A stretch of DNA of 56,089 nucleotides, taken from a virus. Lineage: Duplodnaviria > Caudoviricetes. Each line of letters begins with the position of its first letter. Position 1 is the stretch's first letter. The DNA lies in the IMG/VR virus record IMGVR_UViG_3300042866_000291, positions 1 to 56,089 of that record; one strand, given 5' to 3'. The translations under genes and the position numbers were made by a program. The notes beneath the pieces are model-generated. The model saw nothing but the letters and a program-made list of their open reading frames with translations, was not told where the DNA came from and ran no database searches. Shown one piece after another: positions 1 to 13,017 of the stretch.

Positions 1-1478
1 TTCTTCTCGACGGGCGAGCCCTCGATGTGGATCACCGTCACCTTGTCTGAGTCCTGACCCTTGCGGTCGGCGCGGGCCACGCACTGGGTGTACTGCTCGA
101 CGCTCATCAGCGGGCCGTAAAAAATCACCGTGTCCGCAGCAGTCAGCGTGATGCCGTGCGCGGTGGCCTGCGGCTGCATGACGAGCACCCTCGGGGTGGG
201 CTGCGTCTGGAAGCGCCGGATGATGTCGCCCCGCTTGGTGGCTGTGACGCCGCCATGGATCTGCTCGTTGGCCACGCCGTTCTTCGTGAGGAACTCACTG
301 ATGGTGTCGATGGCTGAGCGGAACAGCGCGAAGATGATTACTTTCCTCTCAGTTTGATCAAGCGCCTCCATCAGGACGTTCAGGCGCGGCGTGGCGTCGA
401 ACTCGACTGTCTCCTTGTTGTCGGTGTAGGCAACCCCGGCAGATATTTGGAGCAGCTTGTTGAGCGCAGCGGCAGCGTTGACTGCCGTGATCGTCTCGCC
501 TGCGGCCATGACCAGCATCTGGGTCTTGAGCAGGTTGTAGTACTTGGCCTGCTGCGGCGTGAGCGGCACCTCGCGGGTGGTCGTCAGTACAGGCGGCAGA
601 TCCAGGCACTGGGCCTTGGTGTAGCGGATGGCCGGTTGCAGTGCAGCGTGCACCTTGTCGGCAGCATCGGCCTTGGGCGCCCACTTGAACATGGTGATCT
701 TGTTCATCACCGCATCGCGCCACGCCGTGTAGAACTTGGGCACGTTGTTCGGGTTGACCAGCTTGGCCAGACCGTAGGCGTCCACGGGAGACTGCGAAGC
801 AGGAGTGCCGGTCATCATCCACAGGTACGTCTCGGGTGTGAGGATGGAGTTCAGCGCCTTCCACCGCTTGGTCTGCGGGTTCTTGTAGGCGTTGGCTTCG
901 TCCACGATGATCAGGTCGAACCGGCCGTCGTTCTTTACCTCGTTGGCGATCAGCGCCAGACCTTCGTAGTTGACGATCACGAACTCGTAGTTTTCTTGGA
1001 TGAGTTCGATGCGCCGTGCGGCCTGAGCATGATGCGCCACCACCGCGCTGCGATGAATGACGCTGTTACCCAAGTCCTGCATCCAGGCGCTGTGCATGAT
1101 CGACAGCGGGCACAGGATCAGGCAGCGTCGAACTTCACCGCGCTGCATCAGGTAGTCTGCCGCCCACAGGGCGGACAGCGTCTTGCCTGTACCGGGTTCG
1201 GACAGGACGAATGCGCGGCGATTGAGCGTGAGGAAAGAGGCTGTCTCCTTCTGGTGGGCCATCGGCTTGAAGCGCCCGGGCCAGTCGTACCTGCCAAAGA
1301 TTGGCGAAGGTACGTTCTTGACGCCCAGGTTCTTGAGCACCCGCGTCTCATCGAGCCCCCACCAGACTGCAACTTGGTAGCCGCCTGGGATCGGCGTGAC
1401 GTTGCTCTTAGGAATCAGGGAATACTTATCCGGGCTGCGCGTCTTAAAGACGAGCAGCTTGTTGTCGATGACTTCCAT
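1..1478 (-). CDS. SNF2-family (SF2) helicase, truncated by left edge
   Basis: Manual translation from ATG 1478 (AGGAG RBS): MEVIDNKLL..., Walker A SEPGTGKT, Walker B IIVDEA, motif III MTGTP, later QPQATAHGITL and RADR. Missing from the ORF track because it runs off the edge. Confidence 0.9.
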   Translation of the reverse strand, partial: MEVIDNKLLVFKTRSPDKYSLIPKSNVTPIPGGYQVAVWWGLDETRVLKNLGVKNVPSPIFGRYDWPGRFKPMAHQKETASFLTLNRRAFVLSEPGTGKTLSALWAADYLMQRGEVRRCLILCPLSIMHSAWMQDLGNSVIHRSAVVAHHAQAARRIELIQENYEFVIVNYEGLALIANEVKNDGRFDLIIVDEANAYKNPQTKRWKALNSILTPETYLWMMTGTPASQSPVDAYGLAKLVNPNNVPKFYTAWRDAVMNKITMFKWAPKADAADKVHAALQPAIRYTKAQCLDLPPVLTTTREVPLTPQQAKYYNLLKTQMLVMAAGETITAVNAAAALNKLLQISAGVAYTDNKETVEFDATPRLNVLMEALDQTERKVIIFALFRSAIDTISEFLTKNGVANEQIHGGVTATKRGDIIRRFQTQPTPRVLVMQPQATAHGITLTAADTVIFYGPLMSVEQYTQCVARADRKGQDSDKVTVIHIEGSPVEK

Positions 1479-1485
1479 GGTTCTC

Positions 1486-1716
1486 CTATTTGTTGTCGGA
1501 TCGGTTGGCGCTCTTGCTGCGCATGCGCAGGTTGTCCTTGGTGGACGTGCCACCGCTGCGCATCGGCTTGATGTGATCCACGTCTTTACCGTCACCCTTC
1601 TTGGCAGCGCCGGTCTTCTCCATCATGCGCCGCGCCTTGACGCGTTCAGCACGCTTCTTGATCTGCTCGGGCGTGCCCTGGTAGTTGTCATACTCTTGCT
1701 TGTAGTTCCTAGCCAC
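1486..1716 (-). CDS. Small HNH-motif protein (76 aa)
   Basis: GTG start after AAGGAG; DVDHIKPMRSGG...NLR...ANRS. Confidence 0.75.
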   Translation of the reverse strand: MARNYKQEYDNYQGTPEQIKKRAERVKARRMMEKTGAAKKGDGKDVDHIKPMRSGGTSTKDNLRMRSKSANRSDNK

Positions 1717-2266
1717 GTCTAGCTCCTTTGCTTGAGTTACATGAGCGGCACAGAATCTGGTAGTCCGCTTGCTGCTGATGAAACGCCTGCCATGCTTGAA
1801 GCGTTTCGTAGTCTGCGATGTGCCAGCCGCTGCCGTCTTCGTTGTTGGCCAAAGCGACATCACCGTGCTCTGCGCAGAATGCCTGTGCAATGTCCTTGAA
1901 CGGCTTGCTTTTGTGATCCACCGCGATGAAGTCTGTAGAGCTACACGCCACACAGACGAGTTCTGCTGCCTGCATGTATCCGTACGTCTGATGCTTGACG
2001 GCTACGCGCATGGCTTCCAGCAGGTTGTTGGCCGGGGATAGCGCCCGGTTCCATGACCAGACGACAAAGGTGTTTCCATCATCGGAGTGGGCCACGCACC
2101 GCGTATCGTTGGGGTACATCTGGTTGTACACCTTCTTGTACCAACGGAACTTCCACCCAGTCAGTTCGTTGAACCGCGCCGTATCTTCGTCACTGAACAA
2201 CGTGTTGCCGGGTTGCCGGTCGATCAGAGCGCGTATCTCTTCCTTGCGGGCTTTGATCGTAGTCAT
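1709..2266 (-). CDS. HNH endonuclease-like protein with a possible DUF3223/DCL-like N-terminus
   Basis: CVAC...VDH...QILCRSCNSSK zinc/HNH pattern. Confidence 0.65.
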   Translation of the reverse strand: MTTIKARKEEIRALIDRQPGNTLFSDEDTARFNELTGWKFRWYKKVYNQMYPNDTRCVAHSDDGNTFVVWSWNRALSPANNLLEAMRVAVKHQTYGYMQAAELVCVACSSTDFIAVDHKSKPFKDIAQAFCAEHGDVALANNEDGSGWHIADYETLQAWQAFHQQQADYQILCRSCNSSKGARRG

Positions 2267-2267
2267 A

Positions 2268-2933
2268 TCAGTGCTTCGGGTTTAGCGGGCAGGTGGTGAC
2301 CGGGCACCACCCACACAGCGGTGATTGAGACGGGTTCCACACATCTGTGGCGTGCGCTGATTCGAGCTTGGCCACGCGCTCCTTGTAGCGCCACCATGCT
2401 TCCTCAGCCTCACCGCGCAGCATGGCGTGGGTGGTCATCGTCTCTTTCACCAGGAACATCAGCGCCGACTTGACCTGCCTGATGTGGGGGAAGTGAGCGA
2501 AGACCATGAGGGACATCAAGACCAACTGGTCTTTGTCCGGGTACTTGTTGTTGCCCGTCTTCCAGTCCACCACCTTGGCGGTCAGGTTGTCGTCGTTGAT
2601 GATGAGCAGGTCGGCGATGCCACGTACCCAGCGATTGGGATCGTTAAAGCCACAAGGCTGAAGGTCACGCGTGATACCCATCTCATGCTCGAACAGTTTG
2701 CGCCCGGGCTTCTTGAGGATCTCGTCCACCGCCGGTTTGAACTGCGCGTACTTCTCCGGTATCGGCGTGCCGAGCTTGCCGTAGTCCTCGATGGCTTTGT
2801 GCACGTCCTTGCCGTAGATGGTGTGCGTCGTCTCAACGAACGGATAGTTCTTGAGAACCTTGACCTCGTGGTAGCGACGGGCGCAGCCCTCGAAGTCTTT
2901 GAGTGCGCTGTGGCTCCAGGTGACGTTGGTCAT
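2268..2933 (-). CDS. PD-(D/E)XK Cas4/RecB-like exonuclease
   Basis: WSHS...C at N-terminus, RGIADL, VDWKTG, QL, C-terminal CGWCPVTTC. Confidence 0.85.
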   Translation of the reverse strand: MTNVTWSHSALKDFEGCARRYHEVKVLKNYPFVETTHTIYGKDVHKAIEDYGKLGTPIPEKYAQFKPAVDEILKKPGRKLFEHEMGITRDLQPCGFNDPNRWVRGIADLLIINDDNLTAKVVDWKTGNNKYPDKDQLVLMSLMVFAHFPHIRQVKSALMFLVKETMTTHAMLRGEAEEAWWRYKERVAKLESAHATDVWNPSQSPLCGWCPVTTCPLNPKH

Positions 2934-3250
2934 TTGAACTCCGCCGACTTGATGGCCTTGGCAAGGCGCCCTGCAAACTCGGTGACGAACTTCTCGTCGT
3001 TGTACAGGCGGCTGTCCATGTCGTAGAGGATGGCGTGCACAAGCTCATGCCAGAAGGTGTCGCACATCTGGTCGTTGCTGAACTTGCGGCCATCGACGTT
3101 GCTGGTCTGACCGATCTGAATGCGGCCTGCTTCGTACCAGATGCGGCCACGATCACGCGCACGCTGCATGGACTGGATGATGTCCACGGAATATTGTTTG
3201 TCGCCGACCTTGATGCGGCGGGGAATGGGGGCGGGTTGGTTAGCGGTCAT
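2930..3250 (-). CDS. Small HExxH putative metallopeptidase
   Basis: TFWHELVHAIL...NDEKFV. Confidence 0.6.
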   Translation of the reverse strand: MTANQPAPIPRRIKVGDKQYSVDIIQSMQRARDRGRIWYEAGRIQIGQTSNVDGRKFSNDQMCDTFWHELVHAILYDMDSRLYNDEKFVTEFAGRLAKAIKSAEFK

Positions 3251-3428
3251 GTTGCTCCTTCAGGTGTTTTAGTGTTGTCTGCAAGATGCGGGCTTCTGTC
3301 AGTAGCATCAGCACGCGCTCCTGGGCTTCTCCGTAGTGCTTCTCGTTGCACAGGTCATGGATCTCTTTTGCGCACCGCTCGATCTTCATGAGCGGCATCG
3401 CGTAGTCAATGATCGTGTCGGTCTTCAT
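3240..3428 (-). CDS. Hypothetical protein (62 aa)
   Basis: ATG overlaps the polymerase stop (ATGA); MKTDTIIDYAMPL... Confidence 0.6.
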   Translation of the reverse strand: MKTDTIIDYAMPLMKIERCAKEIHDLCNEKHYGEAQERVLMLLTEARILQTTLKHLKEQHDR

Positions 3429-5398
3429 CCTTTTGCTAGTCCGTATCGTTTGTTGTAGCCCACATCTGTCTTGAGCGGAATGCCTGGAAGGTAGGGTACA
3501 GGCGCAACCATTTGCGCAAAGACCCAAGTCTTCGCGTCCTCCGCTTCATCTTCCGGTACCACGGCGATCAATTCATCATGCACCGTGCCTGCCACAGGGT
3601 ACTTTTTAGCAACCCTAAGCATGCCATCCGTCATGACGCATCGCGCCGTACCCTGGACAATGTTGTTGGTGACCTTGCCGCCGTACAGACTGACACGCTT
3701 CTTGCCGTCAGCGTACGTCCACACGACGCGGCCACCATCGCCCTTGTCCGGGCGGAGATCAGGATACCTCATCGCCATACCGCTTGGCAAGATGATCTGT
3801 TCCTTGCGGAAGGTGATGCACTTGTGCGTGTATTCCTTGCCCTTGTACAGGCTGTACTCGATGAGTTCCTGGCACAGATTCCAGAACGCCACCACCGCCT
3901 GTGATGCAGCGCGGTACTTGTCGATGATCGCCTTGGCTGCAAGGCAGTGGATGAGCAACTCTTCGTCGGTGCAGGTGTGCGGGATCTGCTGCATGCGCTT
4001 GACGTTGTCTTCCCAGGACAGAAAGCGTTCCACATCTTCAGCCGTCACACCCAGGGTCTTGGCAGCTTCCTTGGTGTAGAGCACCGGATCAGCGCCCAGG
4101 AACCCCGTGAGAAGCTGCGCAGCGAACGAAGACCAACCCAACTGGTAGCCTGCGCCCAGCAGCGCGGACTTGGCTGATTGGCGCTCGATTGGGTGGCTGT
4201 CTTTGGTCATGCCCGGGATGCCGAACATCTGTGCGCCGAACGCAGCGTACGGATCACCACCGGCCTCGAACACGTCTAGTAGAGCCTTGTTATCCGAAAG
4301 AACCGCGAGGACACGGGGCTCGATCTGCGAAAGGTCACCAGCAACCAGTACGTACCCTTGCGGGGCCATGATGGAGTTTCTGAGGAAGCTGCCACGTTTC
4401 AAGTTCTGCATGTTGATGGCGCTGCCTTTGCTTGCCGTCCACCGACCAGTGCCTGCGCCAAAATAGCTAAGCGGAACCGGTAACCGGCCACGGTTCGCGA
4501 TATCAAGAAAGCGCTGTGCTCGCGTGCGCTCGGATGTCGATTTAACCTTGAGTCGTGCCTCGCACAGCAGCGCGACATCCTCACGATTTCCGTTGACGAG
4601 GGCTTGGAAGAGGGCGTCGTTTTTAGCAAGAGCGTAAGTCTCTTTGCCTGTTGTTTTACTGATCTTTGTTGGTGGTGTGACCCCGAGCGTTTCGAGTGTT
4701 TTGGCGAATCGGTCATTCGACGCAAGCGAAGCCTCATCCACGCCGAGCCTCTGTAGTAATCCTTCACGGGCGTTCCTTTCGTCTTCGATGGCCTTGGCCA
4801 GCAGTTCCTTGTCGAGTTCCAGCAGCGGCCTTGTGTACATCTTCAGAGTGAGATCGATGAGCCTATGCTCTTTGGCAGGGAATCCAACCACCAGTCTTGC
4901 AAAGATGGACTCACACAGGTAGACATCATGCGAGCAGTACTCGGCCAACTCTCGCTCGATCTCTTCTGTAAGCTCTCCCAGTCCATCGGTCGAATGTACG
5001 GCTCGCCCTTTGGGGGGAAGACCAAAATCGCTTGCCAGTTGTGCGAGGGAATTGCCAACCTCCACGCCGCGTAAAGCTCGCGCCATTGACAGCGTGTCGA
5101 AGATGAAGACGGGCTGGACACCGTAGCGCCAGCAAAGGATTGAGACATCGAACTGTGCGTTATGCGCAAGGACGGCGGTTCGTCCCCAGTCGATTCCAGA
5201 AAGGTACTCAGGTAGATCTGATCCTCCAATCCATTTAATCGGCTCGTCGCTTCCATATACATGGACACAAGCTCCGAAGGCTTTAAAGCGGCTATCACGT
5301 ATGTACTCCTCCGTTGTCATCTTCGAGAGGGTGTACTCCTTGCTGCTCCAGCGCGTCTCGAAGTCGATTGAAAGAATCTGGTCGAAAGGTAAGCTCAA
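3425..5398 (-). CDS. polA: Family A DNA polymerase with 3'-5' exonuclease domain
   Basis: Exo DFET, HNAQFD, YCSHD; motif A DLSQIEPR, motif B RQSAKSALLGAGY, motif C VHDE. Confidence 0.95.
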   Translation of the reverse strand: MSLPFDQILSIDFETRWSSKEYTLSKMTTEEYIRDSRFKAFGACVHVYGSDEPIKWIGGSDLPEYLSGIDWGRTAVLAHNAQFDVSILCWRYGVQPVFIFDTLSMARALRGVEVGNSLAQLASDFGLPPKGRAVHSTDGLGELTEEIERELAEYCSHDVYLCESIFARLVVGFPAKEHRLIDLTLKMYTRPLLELDKELLAKAIEDERNAREGLLQRLGVDEASLASNDRFAKTLETLGVTPPTKISKTTGKETYALAKNDALFQALVNGNREDVALLCEARLKVKSTSERTRAQRFLDIANRGRLPVPLSYFGAGTGRWTASKGSAINMQNLKRGSFLRNSIMAPQGYVLVAGDLSQIEPRVLAVLSDNKALLDVFEAGGDPYAAFGAQMFGIPGMTKDSHPIERQSAKSALLGAGYQLGWSSFAAQLLTGFLGADPVLYTKEAAKTLGVTAEDVERFLSWEDNVKRMQQIPHTCTDEELLIHCLAAKAIIDKYRAASQAVVAFWNLCQELIEYSLYKGKEYTHKCITFRKEQIILPSGMAMRYPDLRPDKGDGGRVVWTYADGKKRVSLYGGKVTNNIVQGTARCVMTDGMLRVAKKYPVAGTVHDELIAVVPEDEAEDAKTWVFAQMVAPVPYLPGIPLKTDVGYNKRYGLAKG

Positions 5399-5688
5399 TG
5401 TTTAGTCTCCTCATCGCTGCCTTTGAATGTGTCAGCAAACACTTCCGCTGATGCGCGGATGATTCCAGCAGACTCAAAGAAGGTGGCGTTGAGCCCCATC
5501 GTGGTGAGATACCCATCAGTACTGGCCACCACCAGCACGCCTTGCGTGTCTTCTTCGACGAACGTGCGCAGCATCAGCTTGATGGCCTTGATCAGCGCCT
5601 TCTGCTGATCGTCGGGCATCGCTGCGATGAGCGTGTCCATCCTGGCGTAGTACGCCTTGTCGTCCTCATTCATTACTTCTCCTAGCAT
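5395..5688 (-). CDS. Hypothetical protein
   Basis: Tightly packed ORF in the operon; start could be the downstream Met (MNEDDK). Confidence 0.6.
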   Translation of the reverse strand: MLGEVMNEDDKAYYARMDTLIAAMPDDQQKALIKAIKLMLRTFVEEDTQGVLVVASTDGYLTTMGLNATFFESAGIIRASAEVFADTFKGSDEETKH

Positions 5689-5968
5689 CTAGCACCTCCT
5701 GTAGTTCATGCATATTGCCCTCGTTGATCACAATGGCCGTACCGCCAGATGCGCGTATCTTGGCCATCTCCGCCTCCTGCAAAGCGGTAGGTTTGTTGTT
5801 GCCTGCCTTGCACTCGATGGCCAGGAAGTGGCCGTCCAAGCACGCAACGATGTCGGGGATCCCCACCCTACCGTAGCCCGACGCTACGGGGAAGAAGTGA
5901 TAAACACTACGCGCCTTCAGCAGCGCCACGCATTGCTTCTTGACTTTGACTTCCGGCGTTGCTGCCAT
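5666..5968 (-). CDS. VRR-NUC domain nuclease
   Basis: TPEVKVK...GIPDIV...FLAIECKA...PTALQ...GG. Confidence 0.85.
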   Translation of the reverse strand: MAATPEVKVKKQCVALLKARSVYHFFPVASGYGRVGIPDIVACLDGHFLAIECKAGNNKPTALQEAEMAKIRASGGTAIVINEGNMHELQEVLDARRSNE

Positions 5969-6290
5969 CGAGAGACTCCGTTGGTTTGAGGATCATGGAC
6001 TGCCACATCGTGACCACCATGCCGTGCACAGTGCGGCTGTTGGCCCGCACCCAGCCGGAGCCCACCACCACGCCTTCACGTCTAGCGCGTCGTGCGATGC
6101 TGCCCCAGGCCCGGTCGTCGGGGGGTTGTGGTAGATCAGGGTTGGCTGCACGCACCTCTTCTGTTGTGAAGTGCGAATGCGTCATGGCGTACTGCTTGAA
6201 TGCGTAGAACGCTTCTTCTTTCCAGAACTCGCCTGCGTTGTCAGCGGCGACTTCGGCCATCTCGTGGCCAATGCTTAGACCTTCGTTCAT
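5907..6290 (-). CDS. Hypothetical protein, possible winged-helix
   Basis: Strong RBS ACAGGAG; FTTEEVR...RAWGSIARRA. Confidence 0.65.
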   Translation of the reverse strand: MNEGLSIGHEMAEVAADNAGEFWKEEAFYAFKQYAMTHSHFTTEEVRAANPDLPQPPDDRAWGSIARRARREGVVVGSGWVRANSRTVHGMVVTMWQSMILKPTESLDGSNAGSQSQEAMRGAAEGA

Positions 6291-6313
6291 GTGTTTCTCC
6301 TGTAGTTTGAATG

Positions 6314-6456
6314 CGAGGGGGAAATGCAGATTCCTAGCCCCCTCGTTCTAGGTGGAAGGTGCCTACGCGGGATTACTGATTGGCGGCGTCCCGTGTAGGA
6401 GTAACCGTGGGTCGCATCTGCAAGGCTTGCCACCGTTACCTAACCATGCTGCCGCC
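6314..6456 (-). ncRNA. Candidate multi-pseudoknot structured RNA (strand uncertain)
   Basis: Six complementary segment pairs in a ~145-nt intergenic gap (listed in findings). Confidence 0.6.
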
Positions 6457-6457
6457 T

Positions 6458-6796
6458 TCAGGACTTCTTTGCTTCTTCTACTTCGATCAGCTTGTCGATG
6501 TAGTGACGCGCCTTCTTCAGGTCTTGGATGCCACCCTTCAGGCGCCATCGTGAGAGGTACTTGACGGCGTTGCCGTCCAGGTAGCCAAGATTCCAGTCAA
6601 GGATAACGTCCCAGGTTTCGTGCTTGAACTGCTTGTAGTGTGAGCCTCCTTCTTGACGCGCATTTGCTCGTAGTAGGCTTTCTCCTGCCTCGATGTCCTT
6701 ATCGTCTGATCGTCCCGGTTCGGGTTGTTTTTCATCCCCAGTCTTAAATCTTCTTTCGTTCCCACGGTCGTAAAGCGTGTTCCACAAGTCTGGCAT
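6458..6796 (-). CDS. DUF3310 (SaV-like) protein
   Basis: QEGGSHYK...GNAVKYLSR...KGGIQDLKKARHYI; AAGGAG RBS before ATG 6796. Confidence 0.85.
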   Translation of the reverse strand: MPDLWNTLYDRGNERRFKTGDEKQPEPGRSDDKDIEAGESLLRANARQEGGSHYKQFKHETWDVILDWNLGYLDGNAVKYLSRWRLKGGIQDLKKARHYIDKLIEVEEAKKS

Positions 6797-6879
6797 TCAT
6801 ATCTCCTTCGTTTCAAGCCGTTTGCGGCTCTTCGTGTTTCAAGTGTTTGGCAACTTCCGCCGCACTTGGGGCATTGCAT
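6538..6879 (-). CDS. NrdR-N-like zinc-ribbon protein overlapping DUF3310
   Basis: MQCPKCG...ETR...RRRYECQTCGTRFTT. Confidence 0.65.
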   Translation of the reverse strand: MQCPKCGGSCQTLETRRAANGLKRRRYECQTCGTRFTTVGTKEDLRLGMKNNPNRDDQTIRTSRQEKAYYEQMRVKKEAHTTSSSSTKPGTLSLTGILATWTATPSSTSHDGA

Positions 6880-7232
6880 GTCAACAACTCCATGATCTTG
6901 ATTTGCTTCTTCTTGGCGCGGTAGGCGATCTGCCGTTCAGCCTGCGTCTTCTTCTGACGCCGCTTGTCGGTGCCCTCACCAAGTTTGTAAATCTTAGCCA
7001 GATCACGGCCCCGTTTGTCCTTCTCCCATGCAGCAATATGGGCGGCACCCGCGCGATGCAACTCCCGGGTGTATTGCAGTACCGTCACGTAGTGCAGCCC
7101 GGTCATCTTGGCAAGCTCGGCGCAGGTGTAGGTGCCTTCGAGCAGCAGCTTGATGAGTTGCGCCTGCATGATCGCGTTGATCTTGATCTGGCGCTTACCC
7201 TTGGGGCTGGGCGGTGTTGGTACGTAGGTCAT
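6813..7232 (-). CDS. Winged helix-turn-helix DNA-binding protein
   Basis: LLLEGTYTCAELAKMTGLHYVTVLQYTRELHRAG. Confidence 0.65.
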   Translation of the reverse strand: MTYVPTPPSPKGKRQIKINAIMQAQLIKLLLEGTYTCAELAKMTGLHYVTVLQYTRELHRAGAAHIAAWEKDKRGRDLAKIYKLGEGTDKRRQKKTQAERQIAYRAKKKQIKIMELLTCNAPSAAEVAKHLKHEEPQTA

Positions 7233-7452
7233 GCAGTTGTTGCTCCAGTTGTTTCACGCGCTCGTATGCGCACATGTAATGCTCAGGCCCCCACGACCAG
7301 CAGCCTTCGGCGTGGCTTCCAATGTGGTTGATGTAGTTGGTGATGTCGCGTGCCAGTTGGTCGCGGTCAACAAGCTCGTTGGAAGAAGAGTTGTTGATAG
7401 TAGTCCCACGCAGATAGGCGTGGCACTGCATCAAGAGTTTGATGTGGTTCAT
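7195..7452 (-). CDS. Hypothetical protein
   Basis: Packed ORF with HAEGCWSWGPEHYMCA motif. Confidence 0.6.
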   Translation of the reverse strand: MNHIKLLMQCHAYLRGTTINNSSSNELVDRDQLARDITNYINHIGSHAEGCWSWGPEHYMCAYERVKQLEQQLHDLRTNTAQPQG

Positions 7453-7652
7453 TGCCGATCCTTTATGTTGGACAGCCGCTGCCAGATCGCCTCGGCTTCT
7501 TCATCGGGCACTTCCCTTGAGTTCTCAAACAGCGTGCCGTCCTCCATCATCTGTTTAATCGCGGCCATCATCTCGTCCAGTTCTTCCTGCGTGCCCTCGA
7601 AGTTGTCGAAGGCTCCAGGCGCGATCTCAAGTTTCAGTTTCTTGTCGGTCAT
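7449..7652 (-). CDS. Hypothetical acidic protein
   Basis: GAGG RBS, stop overlaps next ATG; PGAFDNFEGTQEELDE. Confidence 0.65.
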   Translation of the reverse strand: MTDKKLKLEIAPGAFDNFEGTQEELDEMMAAIKQMMEDGTLFENSREVPDEEAEAIWQRLSNIKDRQ

Positions 7653-7872
7653 GTTTTTTCCTCAGTCGAATCAGTTCGTCAAGCATCCGCTCCATCTGAT
7701 CTGCGGCGTGTAGATGAAACGGGCTGATGGGGATGGCGCGTGCGAGGCTTCTCATCATGCCGATGGTCACCCGCACCGACCTCTCGGATACTTTCTGCCT
7801 TGACTTGGGCTGTGCATCTATCTGCGCCAGTACCTTGGCCCCCTTCTGGTTTGCGTTGTGGTCGCCGCTCAT
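7627..7872 (-). CDS. Hypothetical protein
   Basis: Start moved to MSGDHN (ATGA overlap with upstream stop). Confidence 0.55.
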   Translation of the reverse strand: MSGDHNANQKGAKVLAQIDAQPKSRQKVSERSVRVTIGMMRSLARAIPISPFHLHAADQMERMLDELIRLRKKHDRQETET

Positions 7873-8150
7873 GCCCGCTTCCTTAAAACTCTTATCGCCG
7901 CAGCGCACGCCGCCGCCCCACACAACACGCCCTTTTTAAGAAGCTCGTCTTCTGGGTGAAACATCCCCCGGTCTTTCGCCAAGTTTTCACACAACTTCGC
8001 ACACGCCTCACGCTCGGCAGCGGCAACCAAAGCGGCGAAGCGATGCAATTCTTTGTTAATGTGAACTCCATCAACACTTGCAGCCCAAATGTCAAAGTTC
8101 ACATCGAACCCGGCCTTCCGCGGCAGTCGGATGATGGTGTCACGATCCAT
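7869..8150 (-). CDS. Hypothetical protein
   Basis: MDRDTIIR...FAALVAAAEREACAKLCE, a common phage small-protein pattern. Confidence 0.6.
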   Translation of the reverse strand: MDRDTIIRLPRKAGFDVNFDIWAASVDGVHINKELHRFAALVAAAEREACAKLCENLAKDRGMFHPEDELLKKGVLCGAAACAAAIRVLRKRA

Positions 8151-8277
8151 GTCTGTCCTTCCACCATGCTTCAAAGAAGCCCCAGATGACGCCGCCGATG
8201 GCGCTGCCGATGATGATGCCGATGATGATGCTGATGATGGTTCCAAACAGGAACCCCGGAGAAATTTCGCAGTTCAT
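8140..8277 (-). CDS. Small membrane protein (45 aa)
   Basis: Manual translation MNCEISPGFLFGTIISIIIGIIIGSAIGGVIWGFFEAWWKDRHGS; one TM helix with GxxxG; AGGAG RBS. Confidence 0.55.
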   Translation of the reverse strand: MNCEISPGFLFGTIISIIIGIIIGSAIGGVIWGFFEAWWKDRHGS

Positions 8278-8633
8278 GCCTTCTCTCCTGCTTTTGCGAT
8301 GGCTGCGCGGGCTTTCACGGCTTCAGGCCAATGCTGCCGCCCGTGTTTGCGGAACTCTTTGTCGATGTATTTCAACGCCATCAACAGTTCCGCGTTCAGC
8401 GTTTCAAGCGCAAACATCTTCTCGTTCCACCACTCTTGTCGTTTGGCGAAGGCTTCGTTGGCTTTGCGCAGCGCATCGCTCTCAGCACTCAGGCGGCGCA
8501 GTTCGGCGGCGGCTTCTCCATCGAGGTAGTGCTGCGCCGTGCCAATAGGGAACTGCTGTTCAAGCGCATCAGCCAAGCGCAGGGCTTCCGCGTGCACCAT
8601 CTGTGCCGGGGTTACTTCCAAGAGTTTTTTCAT
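8274..8633 (-). CDS. Hypothetical coiled-coil protein
   Basis: EALRLADAL...AAAELRRL...ARAAIAKA. Confidence 0.6.
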   Translation of the reverse strand: MKKLLEVTPAQMVHAEALRLADALEQQFPIGTAQHYLDGEAAAELRRLSAESDALRKANEAFAKRQEWWNEKMFALETLNAELLMALKYIDKEFRKHGRQHWPEAVKARAAIAKAGEKA

Positions 8634-8749
8634 AGCCACCCTGCCCAGTGCAGGCAATAAACGAAGGAGAAGAACAGGAAGGCCAACGCCAACAGCATGG
8701 CGGCAAGCCAGCCCAGTTCCTCCAGTCCGTCGTCTTCATAGCGTTGCAT
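8630..8749 (-). CDS. Small membrane protein (39 aa)
   Basis: AGGAG RBS; MQRYEDDGLEELGWLAAMLLALAFLFFSFVYCLHWAGWL. Confidence 0.55.
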   Translation of the reverse strand: MQRYEDDGLEELGWLAAMLLALAFLFFSFVYCLHWAGWL

Positions 8750-8759
8750 TTGCGTCTCC

Positions 8760-9062
<303 letters not shown>

Positions 9063-9071
9063 TGCTTTCTC

Positions 9072-9227
9072 CTAGATCAGAGCAGGCTCTGCGTCCTGCG
9101 GGTTGTACCGCCGCTTGGGCGGCTTCTTGGGTTTGTATGGCTGGCCCTTCCACGTTGGGAAGGGCCACACCTTGGGCGGTGGGTCTAGTGCTTCTTCTGC
9201 ACGTCGAAAGTTTTTGCGAGTAGCCAT
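9072..9227 (-). CDS. Hypothetical protein (51 aa)
   Basis: Manual translation MATRKNF...VWPFPTWKG...DAEPALI. Confidence 0.5.
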   Translation of the reverse strand: MATRKNFRRAEEALDPPPKVWPFPTWKGQPYKPKKPPKRRYNPQDAEPALI

Positions 9228-9346
9228 CTATCCCCCAATCGGCGTACCGACTTGACCCACTGCCGTTGGTTGTGGCGCTGCGTATGCAGCGGCACGTAGT
9301 CCACGGCGAACAGTTCGCGTACCAGTTTCAATGCGCGTGTTTTCAT
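9185..9346 (-). CDS. Hypothetical protein (53 aa)
   Basis: Manual translation MKTRALKLVRELF...QRQWVKSVRRLGDRWLLAK. Confidence 0.55.
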   Translation of the reverse strand: MKTRALKLVRELFAVDYVPLHTQRHNQRQWVKSVRRLGDRWLLAKTFDVQKKH

Positions 9347-9522
9347 TCGTCTCTCTCCGCTTCGTTGATGTCAGTGATATCCCAGTCGGCTTCGTCGGGG
9401 TCGCCCTCGACGTAATCCTCCAGGTTGCTCCACAGCCTTTCGGCTGCTTCTTCGGGAGAGTTGCCGCTGACAACGACGGTGATGTAGGACTCGCGCTTGA
9501 GTTCGATCTCATAGAACTTCAT
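9343..9522 (-). CDS. Hypothetical acidic protein (59 aa)
   Basis: GGAGG RBS; MKFYEIELKRESYITVVVSGNSPEEA... Confidence 0.55.
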   Translation of the reverse strand: MKFYEIELKRESYITVVVSGNSPEEAAERLWSNLEDYVEGDPDEADWDITDINEAERDE

Positions 9523-9992
9523 GCTGCACCTCCCAGGAACAGGATACGCAGGCGCTGCCAGAAGGTGAAGTGGGAGAAAGGCTGAGGCACCTCGACCTCG
9601 ATGTACTGAATCTTGGGCTTGGTCGCCTCTTGGATCTGCTTGATCAACTGCTCGTTTGTTTCGGACAGGTCGAACACCATGTCCTTCAGCCGGTTGCGAT
9701 CAAGCTCCAGCATGGTGCGCTTATCCACCGTTGACTTCTTCGTGTACTTGCGCTTGACTGCGCCCGCAACGATTGCTTTCCTGCGCTCGTACTTGGCTTT
9801 GGCCTGGGCCTTCTTCGCCTTGGTGCGTTCGTAGTTGCGCACGCCGTACACGTACTGCACCAAGCAGCCCACCTCGGCTGCGATCTCCTTGGAGTCTTTG
9901 CCCTGCGCCAGCATCTCGCGGATGAGCGCGGCTTTGTTTGTTTTCGTAGGTATCGTAGGTATCGTGGTTGGGTTTTGTTGGGTCTTCGTCAT
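9519..9992 (-). CDS. Putative HTH DNA-binding/coiled-coil protein
   Basis: Start moved to MTKTQ (CAGGAG RBS); KAALIREMLAQGKDSKEIAAEVGCLVQYVYGV. Confidence 0.6.
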   Translation of the reverse strand: MTKTQQNPTTIPTIPTKTNKAALIREMLAQGKDSKEIAAEVGCLVQYVYGVRNYERTKAKKAQAKAKYERRKAIVAGAVKRKYTKKSTVDKRTMLELDRNRLKDMVFDLSETNEQLIKQIQEATKPKIQYIEVEVPQPFSHFTFWQRLRILFLGGAA

Positions 9993-10038
9993 GCTGTTTC
10001 TCCTGTTGCTTTGAGACGTGGGTCTTTGCCCGAGTCCA

Positions 10039-10067
10039 AGTTTAGACAATGTAACGAGGGGCTGCAA
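10039..10067 (-). promoter_or_regulatory. Sigma70-like promoter
   Basis: TTGCAG-17 bp-TAAACT on the minus strand; -35 sits inside an AGGGG/CCCCT inverted repeat. Confidence 0.5.
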
Positions 10068-10079
10068 CCCCTGCACGCA

Positions 10080-10724
10080 TCAGTGCTGTCGATAGCTGAC
10101 GTTCTTCACCTCCTTGCTCCAGCATGCACGGCAATCGCCGCACTTGTTTTGATTGAGATAGGCTTTGCACTCCACGCCATGGGGCTTGGCCTCGGGTGTG
10201 TGCACCGTGCTTGTGTTTCCCTCGTATGCAGGAGGCTCGGCGTTGACCATCGCACCTGACAGACGCACGCACAGATTCGCAGGGAAGTCGCCAAACGCTG
10301 CGCGGTACTGGTGAATGAGCTTCTTCTCCTTGGTCGGCAACCAGAAGTTAACCGAAGGCAGTGCCTCGGCCACGCGCACGATGTTGAGCAGGTGCTGAAA
10401 AGATTGCAGGTCGCCGCTGTCATGCCAACGAAAGTACTCTTCGCCGCTGTGCTTGATGAGAAAGATCATGGCGTCTGCCCAGGCAGGATGCGTCAGCCCC
10501 GCCATGCGTTTGATGTGCGCCGTCTCCACGCTTGCGTAGCGGTAGTTGGCCTTGAGTGCGTAACACCCCTCGCACACGCTTCCCTTGATCTTCTGTAGCC
10601 TGCCGCCGGTCTTGCACTGGGTGGCGCTGATGCCGTAGCTGCGCCCGGGCATCTTGCTTGGTTTGCCCAGCGTGCCAGCGATGGCCTCGGCTGCACGCTT
10701 GGTGGTGATGGTTGTGATCTGCAT
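10080..10724 (-). CDS. Gp88-like Cys-rich (radical-SAM-like) protein
   Basis: SKMPG...C...CEGCYA, YFRWHDSGD, FWLPTKE, C-terminal CGDCRACW; start MQITT after AGGAGG. Confidence 0.75.
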   Translation of the reverse strand: MQITTITTKRAAEAIAGTLGKPSKMPGRSYGISATQCKTGGRLQKIKGSVCEGCYALKANYRYASVETAHIKRMAGLTHPAWADAMIFLIKHSGEEYFRWHDSGDLQSFQHLLNIVRVAEALPSVNFWLPTKEKKLIHQYRAAFGDFPANLCVRLSGAMVNAEPPAYEGNTSTVHTPEAKPHGVECKAYLNQNKCGDCRACWSKEVKNVSYRQH

Positions 10725-10743
10725 GGTTAACCTCCTGTGAATG

Positions 10744-10769
10744 AAAGAAACGGGGAGCCGAAGCTCCCC
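10744..10769 (-). terminator. Rho-independent terminator
   Basis: GGGGAGC-TTCG-GCTCCCC then GTTTCTTT on the minus strand, downstream of DUF932. Confidence 0.7.
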
Positions 10770-10798
10770 ACGATTAGGGGACTTGCGTCCCCGTTTGA

Positions 10799-11773
10799 TT
10801 AGGCAGCGGCGAGTGCCAACTCCACTGCCCGGTTCTTCAGCGTGTCGCCCTGGCCCCACAGAGCAGAGGCGGTACGGTTCTCATCCGAGTGAGCGCGGAT
10901 GTGGTGGTCGGCGTACTCGGTCACTGCGTTGAGCCAACCCCATGCCGTCTCCTGTGCTGTCTCAAGCCCCGCACCACGTGCGGCGCCGTTGAACAACTCC
11001 ATCACGCGAATGAAACCACGCGTCTCCTTGACTGCGTCGGTGTCCTTGGTGCCGGTCTTGAACAGGTGAACGCACAGGTCTTCGGCCAGCGGACGAGACA
11101 CCTTGATCCCTGACAACAGCCGCGCCGTCTCCATGAAAGCGCGGAACTCCGTGTTGGCGTTCTCCAATACGCCGCGCACATCTTCGGGCTTGAACTCACT
11201 ACGATGCGTCACCCGCACCGCTGCCTTGCCCTCACGTGCCATGCTCAGGGTGTTGTTGCACACCACCCGGACAGTCGTCCAGCGTGCTTCGGTGGCAAGG
11301 GAGCCATCGGCGGAGGTAGACAGGAGAGCATAGGGCACCACCTTGTCCGAGTACCCATCGACGCACACACCCTCGGCGAGCTTGGCCGTGGCGAAGTACC
11401 GCTTGCCCCCAAACAAAACACCCGCTGACTCAATCGTCATCCCACCTGCCGTGGCCCAGTCGCGGAAGAACTCAAGGACTTCGCGGGGCTGCACTACTTT
11501 GTAGGAATCGGATACGACTCCGAGCGCGTCCTTCGTGTCCGAGCGGAACAGCACCACCTTGTCCTTCACCACCTTCATGGCGTCGGCCAACTGGCCACGC
11601 TCAGTGGCGTAGCGTACGTACCCACGCTGCACTTCGTAGTCCATGCCTGCGGCAGCTTGCCACTGCTCCACGCTTTGCCCTGCGGGCATCAGTTGCCCCA
11701 GGCCATGCCACTCGCGCTGAGTGGAGGCGTAAGAGGTGGTGCCGGTTGCGTTTGTATAGAGTTGATGTGCCAT
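10799..11773 (-). CDS. DUF932 / phage-plasmid-like protein
   Basis: MAH...WHGLG, LFRSDTKDALGVVSDSYKVVQPRE, VRVVCNNTL, TAWGWLNAVTEYADH. Confidence 0.88.
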   Translation of the reverse strand: MAHQLYTNATGTTSYASTQREWHGLGQLMPAGQSVEQWQAAAGMDYEVQRGYVRYATERGQLADAMKVVKDKVVLFRSDTKDALGVVSDSYKVVQPREVLEFFRDWATAGGMTIESAGVLFGGKRYFATAKLAEGVCVDGYSDKVVPYALLSTSADGSLATEARWTTVRVVCNNTLSMAREGKAAVRVTHRSEFKPEDVRGVLENANTEFRAFMETARLLSGIKVSRPLAEDLCVHLFKTGTKDTDAVKETRGFIRVMELFNGAARGAGLETAQETAWGWLNAVTEYADHHIRAHSDENRTASALWGQGDTLKNRAVELALAAA

Positions 11774-11836
11774 GTTGAATCTCCTAGTTGAGGTTTGCCG
11801 CTGATCCGCAGCGGCCACGGTTGTCCAGAAGTAGAC

Positions 11837-11867
11837 ATTGTACACCCTTCCCACATCTGTGGGAAGG
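11837..11867 (-). promoter_or_regulatory. Sigma70-like promoter with overlapping 22-bp palindrome
   Basis: TTCCCA-17 bp-TACAAT; CCTTCCCACA-TC-TGTGGGAAGG at 11846-11867. Confidence 0.5.
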
Positions 11868-11885
11868 ATTGGGGTGAAAAAAATT

Positions 11886-12101
11886 TCAGGTCAGGTCGAA
11901 CAAGCGGTGCTGAAGGTTGGCCACGTACTCCGCCTCTTCGTTCATGCCCAACGCTCTGAGGTAGTGCGTGAGCAGGCTCGCCGTCATCAGCGCGTCGCTT
12001 GCGGTGCGCTTCAGATGCAGGTTCGTCAGTCCTGCAAGCAGGTCGGTGCGCTCTTTCGCAGTAAGCGAATCGATGAAGTCTTTGGTTACTCCGTTGGTCA
12101 T
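11886..12101 (-). CDS. Hypothetical protein
   Basis: AAGGAG RBS, 71 aa. Confidence 0.65.
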   Translation of the reverse strand: MTNGVTKDFIDSLTAKERTDLLAGLTNLHLKRTASDALMTASLLTHYLRALGMNEEAEYVANLQHRLFDLT

Positions 12102-12112
12102 TTGCTTTCTCC

Positions 12113-12511
12113 TTAGCTGACGCTGACCTCGAAGGTCAGGTCGCGCACTGCGTCCCGCACCTTGTCATCCAACTCATCGCCCCGCACGAAGTCATCGAAG
12201 TCGGGCAGGTCGTCCACTTGACTGGCGATGTTGTCGTAGTTGTCGTGGTCGTAGTCCTCGCAGTGATCCGCGATAGCCTGCTCCACCACCGAGTCGATCA
12301 TCGGCTTGACCAAGTGGCGCAGGGCGTCCATGTCCACGGTGACGTTCGTCTCCTTCTGAAAGAGTGCGGCTTCGGTCAGCTTGGTTTCCAACGCAGCGAT
12401 GCGCTGAGCCAGTTCTCCCACGATGTTGGCGTGCTGTTGCTGGATGGCCGTGATGTGCGCCTCGACGGCGGCGTTGAGGAGTTGGTTGAAGATGGTGTTG
12501 ATGTCGATCAT
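12113..12511 (-). CDS. Hypothetical protein, coiled coil with acidic C-terminus
   Basis: AGGAG RBS; D-rich tail. Confidence 0.7.
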   Translation of the reverse strand: MIDINTIFNQLLNAAVEAHITAIQQQHANIVGELAQRIAALETKLTEAALFQKETNVTVDMDALRHLVKPMIDSVVEQAIADHCEDYDHDNYDNIASQVDDLPDFDDFVRGDELDDKVRDAVRDLTFEVSVS

Positions 12512-12583
12512 GGTTAGTTTCTCCTAGTTGATGTGCCGCTGAGCCGCAGCGGCTACGGTTATGGGGACGGTTGTCCCCGTTTC

Positions 12584-12991: not shown

Positions 12992-13017
12992 GGTTAGTTC
13001 CTTTCGTTGCTTGGTTG

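What the first reader, a model, noticed from the sequence alone, without database searches (positions are those of the whole stretch)
6314..6456. Candidate undescribed multi-pseudoknot RNA in the replication operon
Seen (plus coordinates): (a) GGCGGC 6382-6387 / GCCGCC 6451-6456; (b) GTAAC-C-GTGG 6401-6410 / CCAC-C-GTTAC 6430-6439; (c) TGCAGAT 6325-6331 / ATCTGCA 6416-6422; (d) CCTACGCGGGA 6362-6372 / TCCCGTGTAGG 6389-6399, one non-Watson-Crick pair; (e) CCTAG 6333-6337 / CTAGG 6348-6352; (f) CGAGGGGG 6314-6321 / CCCCCTCG 6338-6345. On the minus (operon) strand the order is a b c b' d a' d' e f e' c' f'. The segments do not overlap, and each hairpin loop pairs with a distant segment. It fills the only large gap in an otherwise overlapping operon and ends about 13 nt before the next RBS. 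Inference: a compact tertiary-folded RNA such as a ribozyme, riboswitch, nuclease-resistant element or protein decoy. I cannot match it to hammerhead, pistol, twister, HDV or SAM consensus by eye.
Basis: partly seen in the sequence, partly recalled or inferred. Interest (0 to 1): 0.8.

Follow-up and report, generated by a model that had tools for sequence, protein, structure and literature searches.

The report
Conserved triple-pseudoknot RNA in freshwater phages
The gap between two genes of this lake-water phage holds a real, evolutionarily conserved RNA of about 150 bases that folds into two knots tied together by a third pairing; it matches no catalogued RNA family and its job is still unknown.

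Summary
All six helices lie at the stated coordinates. Non-overlapping perfect helices cover 82 of 143 nt, against 42±12 in 1000 shuffles.

The element is conserved. I collected 55 distinct versions from IMG/VR and metagenome contigs. All that could be oriented are on the operon strand.

Covariation supports every helix, including the three crossing ones. On 37 distinct sequences 97% of cells pair, against 37-49% when partners are slid, and 25 of 40 pairs change on both sides. The long-range helix c pairs in 55 of 55 with four sequence variants. G·U cells outnumber A·C 83 to 14, so the folded strand is the sense RNA.

Architecture: two H-type pseudoknots (a/d carrying hairpin b; e/f) bridged by helix c.

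There is no Rfam 15 hit, no conserved ORF and no match in cultured phages.

The element starts at the upstream stop codon and ends 11-42 nt before the next start, at the head of the replication genes. It is absent from close relatives.

Function is inferred only. Most likely it is a cis-acting factor-binding regulatory RNA. Ribozyme and trans-acting RNA remain live rivals.

The parts
6458..6460 (-). Stop codon (TGA) of the upstream DUF3310 gene (ORF 6458-6796). It lies 1 nt before helix a.
   Evidence: ORF list; Pfam DUF3310 at E=4e-10; sequence.
6451..6456 (-). Helix a, 5' arm (GGCGGC). Stem 1 of the 5' H-type pseudoknot.
   Evidence: Variants are GGCGGC/GCCGCC, GGCGAC/GUCGCC, GACGGC/GCCGUC, AGCGGGC/GCCCGCU and AGCGGGU/ACCCGCU. 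In the model-fitted alignment 98% of cells pair and 5 of 7 pairs change on both sides.
6430..6440 (-). Helix b, 5' arm (GGTAACGGTGG). A hairpin inserted in loop 1 of the a/d pseudoknot.
   Evidence: All 11 pairs change on both sides across 37 distinct sequences and 90% of cells pair.
6423..6429 (-). Conserved unpaired 5' part of the b loop (CAAGCCU; family consensus C-W-A-N-C-C-U).
   Evidence: Alignments.
6416..6422 (-). Helix c, 5' arm (UGCAGAU) in the loop of hairpin b. It forms the long-range bridge to the 3' pseudoknot.
   Evidence: Pairing holds in 36 of 36 sequences on an alignment that did not model this helix. The two variable pairs are Watson-Crick in 54 and G·U in 1 of 55 cores, with four variants: UG/CA, CA/UG, AA/UU, CG/CG.
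6412..6415 (-). GNRA-like tetranucleotide (GCGA) right after c. In the family it is GCGA, GUGA or GCAA.
   Evidence: Tabulated. The GNRA reading is recalled knowledge and was not tested.
6400..6410 (-). Helix b, 3' arm (CCACGGUUACU).
6389..6399 (-). Helix d, 5' arm (CCUACACGGGA). Stem 2 of the 5' pseudoknot.
   Evidence: All 10 modelled pairs change on both sides and 98.4% of cells pair. On a sequence-only alignment of subfamily 2 the helix is 100% paired and 4 of 10 pairs change on both sides.
6382..6387 (-). Helix a, 3' arm (GCCGCC). It lies inside the loop of d.
6362..6372 (-). Helix d, 3' arm (UCCCGCGUAGG).
6353..6361 (-). C-rich linker between the two pseudoknots (CACCUUCCA). Many members carry CCUCC here, but not all.
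   Evidence: Alignments.
6348..6352 (-). Helix e, 5' arm (CCUAG). Stem 1 of the 3' pseudoknot.
   Evidence: Pairing is 100% on an alignment that did not model this helix, with UA in 24 and CG in 13 at the variable pair. Of 55 cores, 53 have a perfect complement and the other 2 differ by one wobble.
6338..6345 (-). Helix f, 5' arm (CGAGGGGG; the family core is GAGGGGG). Stem 2 of the 3' pseudoknot.
   Evidence: Of 55 cores, 46 are GAGGGGG/CCCCCUC, 3 are AAGGGGG/CCCCCUU and 2 are CAGGGGG/CCCCCUG.
6333..6337 (-). Helix e, 3' arm (CUAGG). It directly follows f 5', so loop 2 has 0 nt.
6325..6331 (-). Helix c, 3' arm (AUCUGCA) in loop 3 of the e/f pseudoknot.
6314..6321 (-). Helix f, 3' arm (CCCCCUCG). 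This is the 3' end of the element.
   Evidence: A variant contig in a DNA run diverges from the window exactly here (joint 5776 to 6316).
6288..6313 (-). G-poor spacer, Shine-Dalgarno AGGAG (6301-6297) and ATG (6290-6288) of the next gene (127 aa, no family assigned).
   Evidence: Across 53 contexts with a called start the spacer is 11-42 nt.

Best explanation
Window 6312-6461 (minus strand) encodes a conserved structured RNA of about 150 nt. It is transcribed as part of the early/replication operon.

The fold has two H-type pseudoknots. The 5' one is a/d, with hairpin b inserted in its first loop. The 3' one is e/f, with a 3-nt loop 1 and no loop 2. A 7-bp helix c locks them together by pairing the loop of b with loop 3 of e/f.

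The 5' helices vary freely in sequence and act as a scaffold. The 3' pseudoknot, helix c and the flanking unpaired bases are almost invariant and form the functional core.

Inferred mechanism: the folded core acts in cis at the junction between the regulator genes and the replication genes. It would serve as a binding platform for a conserved partner, such as a protein, the ribosome or a small molecule. That binding would set the translation or lifetime of the downstream replication-gene message.

Helix a abuts or overlaps the upstream stop codon. Terminating ribosomes must therefore melt it, so the fold is coupled to upstream translation.

Shown here: the structure, the strand, the conservation, the position and the dispensability. 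Inferred: that the element acts in cis, that it binds a partner, and what the outcome is.
For: Structure and strand:
- On a sequence-only alignment of 14 subfamily-2 sequences, 98.9% of cells pair, against 35-58% when partners are slid. Nine pairs change on both sides.
- On 37 distinct sequences, 97.0% pair against 37-49% slid, 25 of 40 pairs change on both sides, and 0 of 500 shuffles reach the observed values.
- Helices c and e were never part of a model and are 100% paired. Helix c holds in 55 of 55 cores.
- G·U cells number 83 and A·C cells 14.

Core versus scaffold: the invariant columns cluster in the b loop and the e/f/c region, while a, b and d covary.

Cis position:
- In the contexts where the upstream ORF is recognisable, its stop codon lies 37-41 nt before the invariant CAGAUG (29-30 nt in L143 and L145, where helix a precedes the stop). 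That places it at or inside helix a.
- The next start codon follows f by 11-42 nt in 53 of 55 contexts.
- The element is single-copy, with one hit in the 56-kb window.
- It always has the operon's orientation: all 43 hits in loci oriented by the DUF3310 gene are on the + strand.
- It has no promoter-like or terminator-like site of its own.
- It sits between the HTH and Zn-ribbon regulator-like genes and the nuclease, PolA, exonuclease and helicase genes.
- The downstream gene differs among members: VRR-NUC, DUF3310, a Zn-finger protein and others. This fits control of an operon rather than of one gene.
Against: - No conserved expression platform was found. There is no terminator after f.
- The downstream Shine-Dalgarno sequence cannot pair well with f 3', and the CCUCC linker is not conserved in every clade.
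- Spacing to the start codon is variable, which argues against precise ribosome positioning.
- Close relatives lack the element. L072 carries the same small neighbouring protein, yet its DUF3310 gene abuts VRR-NUC directly. Many others are the same. The element is therefore not essential for expressing these genes, a pattern also typical of accessory trans-acting genes.
- No RNA-level data could be obtained.
Confidence: 0.45

Rival explanations
1. The element is a self-cleaving ribozyme, or a dedicated RNase-processing module. It would cut the polycistronic message at the regulator/replication boundary, so that the two halves have different stability.
For: The near-invariant core is built from pseudoknots and surrounded by freely covarying peripheral helices. 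By recalled knowledge, that anatomy is typical of small ribozymes. The element is intercistronic and starts exactly at the end of the upstream gene. Peripheral insertions are tolerated: L051, L075 and L094 carry an extra hairpin of about 24 nt in b.
Against: No Rfam ribozyme model matches, at E<=10 for the window and E<=5 for nine members. The strand order does not fit the HDV-like nested double pseudoknot (recalled topology). No cleavage site can be proposed from sequence alone.
Confidence: 0.2
2. The element is a trans-acting stable non-coding RNA released from the operon transcript. It could be a decoy or sponge for a host defence or host RNA-binding factor, making it an accessory 'moron'-like RNA gene.
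For: Presence is patchy among close relatives: 43 of the 80 DUF3310 loci examined carry it, and L072 lacks it despite near-identical neighbours. It occupies different positions relative to DUF3310. Element similarity does not track flanking-gene similarity: L002's DUF3310 is 93% identical in protein, yet its element is 74% identical in DNA. A compact pseudoknotted fold would resist nucleases.
Against: It has no promoter or terminator of its own. It always occupies the same operon junction, flush with a stop codon and followed by a ribosome-binding site. It is not repeated as type III antitoxin RNAs are.
Confidence: 0.2
3. The element works at the DNA level, for example as a replication origin, a single-strand initiation signal or a protein-binding set of inverted repeats, rather than as RNA.
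For: It lies in the replication module, and inverted repeats are visible on both strands.
Against: Pairing is kept by compensatory changes rather than by sequence conservation. The 83 G·U cells against 14 A·C cells show that only the sense strand folds well. The crossing helices covary. There is no GC-skew turning point at 6.4 kb. Folded sense-strand single-stranded DNA is not strictly excluded.
Confidence: 0.05
4. The element is already described. It could be one of the 8,495 unnamed candidate structured RNAs predicted from IMG/VR intergenic regions (PMC10690425), or a divergent member of a known family that Rfam models miss.
For: That study clustered IMG/VR intergenic regions and kept motifs of 29-151 nt that showed covariation and at least three hits (passages read). 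A motif with dozens of IMG/VR copies could have been caught.
Against: Nothing matching appears in the text I could read: 'DUF3310' occurs 0 times. The core sequence appears in no relevant paper of the library. Searching 'DUF3310' with 'RNA motif' finds 0 papers. There is no Rfam 15 hit. Supplementary tables were closed, so this remains open. Even if the motif is listed, it would carry no function and probably no pseudoknots.
Confidence: 0.1

Closest known systems
H-type pseudoknot riboswitch aptamers (preQ1-II/III, SAM-II/V, fluoride). Recalled; preQ1 classes are also named in the abstract of PMC11625349, seen in the search listing.
   Same: A compact pseudoknot core with near-invariant loop and junction bases and covarying stems, located in an mRNA just upstream of a ribosome-binding site.
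   Different: No Rfam model of these classes matches. The element is about 150 nt with two pseudoknots and a bridging helix. There is no conserved Shine-Dalgarno sequestration or terminator. The downstream genes are heterogeneous, and no ligand-related genes were seen in the operon.
Dicistrovirus intergenic-region IRES (abstract of PMC13273307 seen in the listing; otherwise recalled).
   Same: An intergenic RNA built from two to three pseudoknots between two cistrons. Some members precede start codons with no visible Shine-Dalgarno sequence.
   Different: The spacing to the start codon is variable. Starts are ordinary AUG, and most members have a Shine-Dalgarno sequence. There is no sequence or model similarity. 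The host is bacterial.
Pseudoknotted translational operators bound by proteins: T4 gene 32 mRNA (mentioned in PMC10690425, passage), and the E. coli S4 and S15 operators (recalled).
   Same: A pseudoknotted mRNA element immediately upstream of a ribosome-binding site within a polycistronic message. This is the kind of action proposed in the best explanation.
   Different: Those operators precede the gene of the protein that binds them. Here the downstream gene varies, and no binding protein is identified. The one co-occurring small protein is a lineage marker rather than a strict partner.
Double-pseudoknot self-cleaving ribozymes (HDV-like, twister, glmS). Recalled.
   Same: Several crossing helices, a conserved core and variable peripheral stems. 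These ribozymes also occur in phage and metagenome sequence.
   Different: The strand order a b b' d a' d' e f e' f' plus c does not match the HDV order 1-2-3-3'-1'-4-4'-2' (recalled). There is no Rfam hit. Catalysis was not tested.
UG27 reverse-transcriptase-associated ncRNA arrays of phages (bioRxiv 10.64898/2026.09.22.753630; section 9 read).
   Same: Phage-encoded units of about 150 nt that contain a pseudoknot.
   Different: Those RNAs occur as multi-unit arrays next to a reverse transcriptase and two accessory proteins. Here there is a single copy and no RVT_1 match anywhere in the 56-kb record.
HK022 put RNA, a cis-acting RNA that makes RNA polymerase resistant to termination. Recalled.
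   Same: A single-copy, orientation-specific, co-transcribed RNA in a phage early operon that is optional among related phages.
   Different: put is two simple stem-loops. Here the repeated terminator-like hairpins lie upstream of the element, not downstream.

Membership tests
Any Rfam 15 family (4227 covariance models) | A score at or near the family's gathering threshold on the element. | tested here: not met
   With the E-value threshold set at 10, only chance-level hits appear at the downstream ribosome-binding site: Mu-gpT-DE at 15 bits against a cutoff of 49, and the HtrA thermometer at 13 bits against 52. Nine diverse members give nothing on the element at E<=5.
HDV-like ribozyme | A nested double pseudoknot with strand order P1-P2-P3-P3'-P1'-P4-P4'-P2' (recalled). 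| tested here: not met
   The observed order is a b b' d a' d' e f e' f' with c bridging. No hairpin lies between d 5' and a 3'. There is no Rfam hit.
HDV-like or other self-cleaving ribozyme | Site-specific self-cleavage. | not testable with these tools
   This needs an in vitro transcription and cleavage assay.
Riboswitch | A conserved aptamer with covarying stems and invariant junctions. | tested here: met
Riboswitch | An expression platform: a terminator, or Shine-Dalgarno sequestration that alternates with the aptamer fold. | tested here: not met
   No terminator-like site lies at or after the element. The linker CCUCC and f 3' do not pair consistently with the downstream Shine-Dalgarno sequence. 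A local alternative hairpin around c 5' is compatible at each of its two variable pairs in only 49 of 55 cores.
Riboswitch | Specific ligand binding. | not testable with these tools
   This needs in-line probing or calorimetry. No ligand-related genes were seen nearby.
UG27 reverse-transcriptase ncRNA array | A tandem array of units next to an RT gene and two accessory genes. | tested here: not met
   The element is single-copy. PF00078 has no match in the record.
Type III toxin-antitoxin antitoxin RNA (ToxI-like; recalled) | Tandem direct repeats of about 34-45 nt next to a toxin gene. | tested here: not met
   No tandem or direct repeat of that kind lies in 6200-6560. The neighbours are DUF3310, a protein with no family, and VRR-NUC.
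Intrinsic terminator or sigma-70 promoter | A GC-rich hairpin followed by a U tract, or -35 and -10 hexamers. | tested here: not met
   The consensus scan of 1-16000 places no site in 6291-6461 on the operon strand.
Protein-coding gene | A reading frame kept open across homologues. | tested here: not met
   The best frame is open in 18 of 55 cores, on the antisense strand. The best sense frame is open in 15 of 55.
Dicistrovirus-type IGR IRES | A pseudoknot placed directly at the first codon, with initiation that needs no AUG or Shine-Dalgarno sequence (recalled). | tested here: not met
   The spacer is variable at 11-42 nt, the starts are ordinary codons, and most members have a Shine-Dalgarno sequence.

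The most novel reading that the evidence does not exclude
The element founds a new class of catalytic or sensing RNA specific to uncultured freshwater phages. It would be either a new self-cleaving ribozyme or a new ligand- or ribosome-binding switch. It would gate expression of the DNA-replication module through a fold not seen before: two H-type pseudoknots clamped by a loop-loop helix. In the boldest version it recruits ribosomes directly to downstream cistrons that have no Shine-Dalgarno sequence.
Probability: 0.3. Interest if true: 0.85.

Novelty: new member of a known kind. Interest (0 to 1): 0.72.

Why it matters
Orphan RNAs with several covarying pseudoknots and a near-invariant core have repeatedly turned out to be ribozymes, riboswitches or protein- or ribosome-binding regulators.

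This one has 55 natural sequence variants, which already amount to a mutational map. It is small enough, at about 150 nt, for probing, crystallography or cryo-EM. It sits at a defined regulatory junction in an abundant but uncultured lineage of lake phages.

Working out its function would add a new RNA fold. It could also show how these phages time or tune the expression of their replication genes.

The family can be annotated now from the covariance models built here. That removes a recurrent 'unexplained gap' from these phage genomes.

Tried and rejected
- **Nested MFE folding.** It was not significant on either strand. It cannot see pseudoknots, so it does not count against the structure.
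- **Second copy in the genome or window.** None was found. The element is therefore not a repeated promoter or a REP/MITE-type repeat.
- **Cultured phages.** blastn against 50,697 records found only chance matches of 24 nt at E=6 for the window's element, and no match for a subfamily-2 element.
- **Prokaryote genomes.** A gapped exact pattern scanned against 185,579 species genomes gave 0 hits. Only exact matches to the pattern were sought, so diverged copies could be missed.
- **Sequencing runs.** All runs were contigs. Two runs guessed to be RNA hold contigs across 5955-6547. One true metatranscriptome covers only other parts of the stretch. Nothing can be said about transcription, RNA ends or cleavage.
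- **Partner protein.** A protein of about 97 aa (window 5395-5688) occurs in 38 of 43 loci with the element and 2 of 37 without it. The five element-bearing loci without it are not cut short. L072 has the protein but no element. The link looks like shared ancestry. Other 'associated' clusters were off-frame ORFs inside PolA.
- **Zn-ribbon gene as a specific partner.** It is also present in relatives that lack the element.
- **Alternative pairing of the b-loop AGCC with GGCU at the f/e junction.** The G of AGCC varies freely while GGCU is invariant, so this pairing is not supported.
- **Linker CCUCC as an anti-Shine-Dalgarno sequence.** It is absent in the L028 clade and in L135.
- **Local hairpin U-N-N-C/AGAU/G-Y-R-A competing with c.** Each of its two variable pairs is compatible in 49 of 55 cores and mismatched in 6. 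Much of the compatibility follows from the GNRA-like constraint, so the evidence is weak.
- **Resemblance of subfamily-2 GGUUCUAGC to the preQ1-I or T-loop motif (recalled).** It is not kept in subfamily 1, and there is no Rfam hit.
- **GC skew as an origin signal.** It is uninformative at 6.4 kb.
- **Cross-subfamily register.** The model-fitted alignments (A4, A6) were imperfect for helix a. I therefore also ran a free helix search with shuffled-leader controls. The longest run was 8 bp or more in 46 of 55 cores, against 218 of 1100 controls.
- **Supplementary files of PMC10690425.** They were closed, so I could not check whether the motif is among its unnamed candidates.

Full report
**Observation.** On the minus strand, which carries the operon, the 167-nt gap lies between the DUF3310 gene (6458-6796; Pfam E=4e-10) and the next gene (5907-6290). 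Between 3.4 and 8.7 kb every other gene junction on this strand overlaps or is under 30 nt. Helix f ends 12 nt before the AGGAG of the next gene.

Nested folding energy is unremarkable, with z = -0.39 and -1.13. Such folding cannot represent crossing helices. A direct count is more telling. Non-overlapping perfect helices of 5 bp or more cover 82 of 143 nt. In 1000 dinucleotide shuffles the mean was 42±11.6, and none reached 82.

**Homologues.** The window is an IMG/VR virus record of 56,089 bp. Its nearest cultured relatives are distant: PolA is 33% identical to that of Rhizobium phage RHph_TM3_14A. Its DNA recurs in lake and freshwater metagenomes.

Using the DUF3310 protein I fetched 80 related IMG/VR loci, the best 80 of 314. 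blastn of the gap found full-length homologues at about 75% identity right after the DUF3310 stop. In other loci it seemed to find only the 3' part. Reading those loci showed that the entire element is present in a more diverged form, but upstream of DUF3310.

A covariance model built from 12 close sequences found 54 matches in 92 sources at E from 2e-8 to 7e-49. That includes 43 of the 80 DUF3310 loci, always on the gene's strand. A model built only from the second subfamily finds the first subfamily at E from 1e-9 to 7e-18.

Exact-pattern scans added more copies:
- 51 hits for the first pattern in viral contigs, one of which (L118) is a chance match without the element.
- 56 hits for the gapped pattern in viral contigs.
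- 33 hits in metagenome contigs.
- 0 hits in 185,579 prokaryote genomes.

Together these give 55 distinct core sequences.

**Covariation.** On a purely sequence-based alignment of 14 subfamily-2 sequences, 98.9% of cells pair, against 35-58% with slid partners. Nine pairs change on both sides.

On 37 distinct sequences aligned to a model that contained only b, d and f, 97.0% of cells pair, against 37-49% slid. Twenty-five of 40 pairs change on both sides, and 0 of 500 shuffles reach the observed values.

Helices c and e were not in that model, so their columns are unbiased:
- c is paired in 36 of 36, with CG 16, UA 16, AU 3, UG 1 at one pair and AU 19, GC 16, GU 1 at the next.
- e is 100% paired, with UA 24 and CG 13 at its variable pair.

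Over all 55 cores the two variable pairs of c are Watson-Crick in 54 and G·U in 1, in four variants. Helix e has a perfect complement in 53 of 55, and the other 2 differ by one wobble. Helix f shows AAGGGGG/CCCCCUU three times and CAGGGGG/CCCCCUG twice.

Helix a changes from GGCGGC/GCCGCC to GGCGAC/GUCGCC, GACGGC/GCCGUC, AGCGGGC/GCCCGCU and AGCGGGU/ACCCGCU. In the model-fitted alignment it is 98% paired, and 5 of 7 pairs change on both sides. That alignment leans towards the structure. I therefore also ran a free helix search, which gave runs of 8 bp or more in 46 of 55 cores, against 218 of 1100 shuffled-leader controls. In the divergent pair L157/L169 helix a is unclear.

G·U cells outnumber A·C cells 83 to 14. 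The strand that folds is therefore the sense strand of the operon. No reading frame is open across the element in more than 18 of 55 cores.

**Architecture.** Helices a and d form an H-type pseudoknot. Its first loop carries hairpin b, and a 3' lies inside the d loop.

Helices e and f form a second H-type pseudoknot. It has a 3-4-nt loop 1 (A/ACC), no loop 2, and an 11-nt loop 3. Seven bases of loop 3 pair with the loop of b to form helix c. A C-rich linker of 7-12 nt joins the two halves.

Sequence conservation is concentrated in three places: the b loop (C-W-A-N-C-C-U, then c, then a GNRA-like G-Y-R-A), the e/f pseudoknot, and c. Helices a, b and d vary and tolerate insertions. L051, L075 and L094 have an extra hairpin in b. 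This is the pattern of a scaffold holding a functional core.

**Context.** The element's 5' edge coincides with the stop codon of the upstream ORF, and in some members helix a precedes the stop. In 53 of 55 contexts the next start codon was called 11-42 nt after f.

The upstream gene is DUF3310 in subfamily 1 and a Zn-ribbon gene in subfamily 2. The downstream gene is a VRR-NUC nuclease, DUF3310, a Zn-finger protein or others.

In the window the order is: HTH/sigma-like gene, Zn-ribbon, DUF3310, element, 127-aa gene, VRR-NUC, 97-aa gene, PolA, exonuclease, SNF2 helicase. The element thus heads the replication block.

Related phages without it have DUF3310 abutting or overlapping the next gene. 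L072 lacks it although it shares the clade's small protein. The element is therefore optional.

A variant contig in a DNA run diverges from the window exactly at the element's 3' end.

**What it is not.**
- It has no Rfam 15 match.
- It has no promoter-like or terminator-like site of its own.
- It is not a tandem repeat.
- There is no reverse transcriptase in the record, so it is not a UG27-type array.
- There is no GC-skew signal at this position.
- It has no counterpart in 50,697 cultured-phage records at blastn sensitivity.

**Mechanism.** Nothing here measures function, so what follows is inference.

Several features fit a cis-acting RNA best: the fixed junctional position and orientation, co-transcription, the abutment of helix a on the stop codon (terminating ribosomes must unfold it), and the near-invariant core. 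Such an RNA would bind a conserved partner (a protein, the ribosome or a metabolite) and set translation or stability of the downstream replication genes. I give this 0.45.

Against it: I found no conserved expression platform, and the element is dispensable in relatives.

The rivals are:
- A self-cleaving or processing module (0.2). The anatomy fits, but no known class does.
- A trans-acting accessory RNA such as a decoy (0.2). The patchy distribution and mosaic history fit, but the strict junctional placement does not.
- A DNA-level signal (0.05), which is disfavoured by the strand asymmetry and the covarying pseudoknots.

**Novelty.** I found no description of this element:
- Searching 'DUF3310' with 'RNA motif' returned 0 papers.
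- Two broader searches listed nothing that matches.
- The core sequence occurs only in an unrelated paper.

One caveat remains. PMC10690425 predicted 8,495 unnamed structured-RNA candidates from IMG/VR intergenic regions (passages read).

I file it as a new family within the known kind 'orphan structured RNA of phages'. The chance that it represents a new ribozyme or switch class is appreciable.

**Limits.** The RNA runs were contigs only. Covariance models could be run only on sequence already fetched, so the family's true breadth is unknown.

Noticed in passing
window 6538-6879 (-) and 6458-6796 (-): A Zn-ribbon ORF (NrdR-like or Ogr/Delta-like, 113 aa) and the DUF3310 ORF (112 aa) overlap by 259 nt in different frames. 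Each matches phage families along most of its length. The same two-frame overlap appears upstream of the element in subfamily 2, with frames ending '...KAPKKSA' and '...EEVGVADF'. Possible explanations are a frameshift, a nested gene or a miscalled start.
   Followed up: partly
window 10777-10792, 12563-12578, 14449-14464, 15497-15512, 15937-15952: There are five copies of the hairpin GGGGAC-N4-GUCCCC, all in the early region. The expected number by chance is 0.08, and 0 of 100 shuffles reach 5. Two are followed by T runs on the minus strand. This is a repeated terminator-like or regulatory hairpin family, located upstream of the element in the operon.
   Followed up: partly
window 5395-5688 (-): A 97-aa protein with no Pfam or PHROG family lies just before PolA. 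It occurs in 38 of 43 loci with the element and 2 of 37 without it. L072 has the protein without the element, so it is probably a lineage marker.
   Followed up: partly
L045, L040, L042, L027, L032, L053 and L146, downstream of the element: The spacer to the next start codon is C/A-rich with no visible Shine-Dalgarno sequence (for example ...AACCCCCAACAACACCUCAACAUCAUG). It is duplicated in L120.
   Followed up: no
L051, L075 and L094 (insertion in helix b); L037/L038 and L112 (after helix f): These are lineage-specific additions. One is an extra GC-rich hairpin of about 24 nt inside hairpin b. The other is an extra hairpin or partial duplication of the f 3' tail after the element.
   Followed up: no
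window 5776-6316, in run X2: A related phage contig replaces the 127-aa gene (539 nt) with 213 other letters. It keeps the element, with 21 differences and 8 gaps.
   Followed up: no
L157 and L169 (metagenome contigs): This is the most divergent form of the element. Helix c is CGCAGAU/AUCUGCG and helix f is CAGGGGG/CCCCCUG. There is an extra GC hairpin in the d loop, helix a is unclear, and the upstream gene is different.
   Followed up: partly
window 50223-56087 (+): An open reading frame of at least 1955 aa runs off the end of the record. It was not annotated.
   Followed up: no
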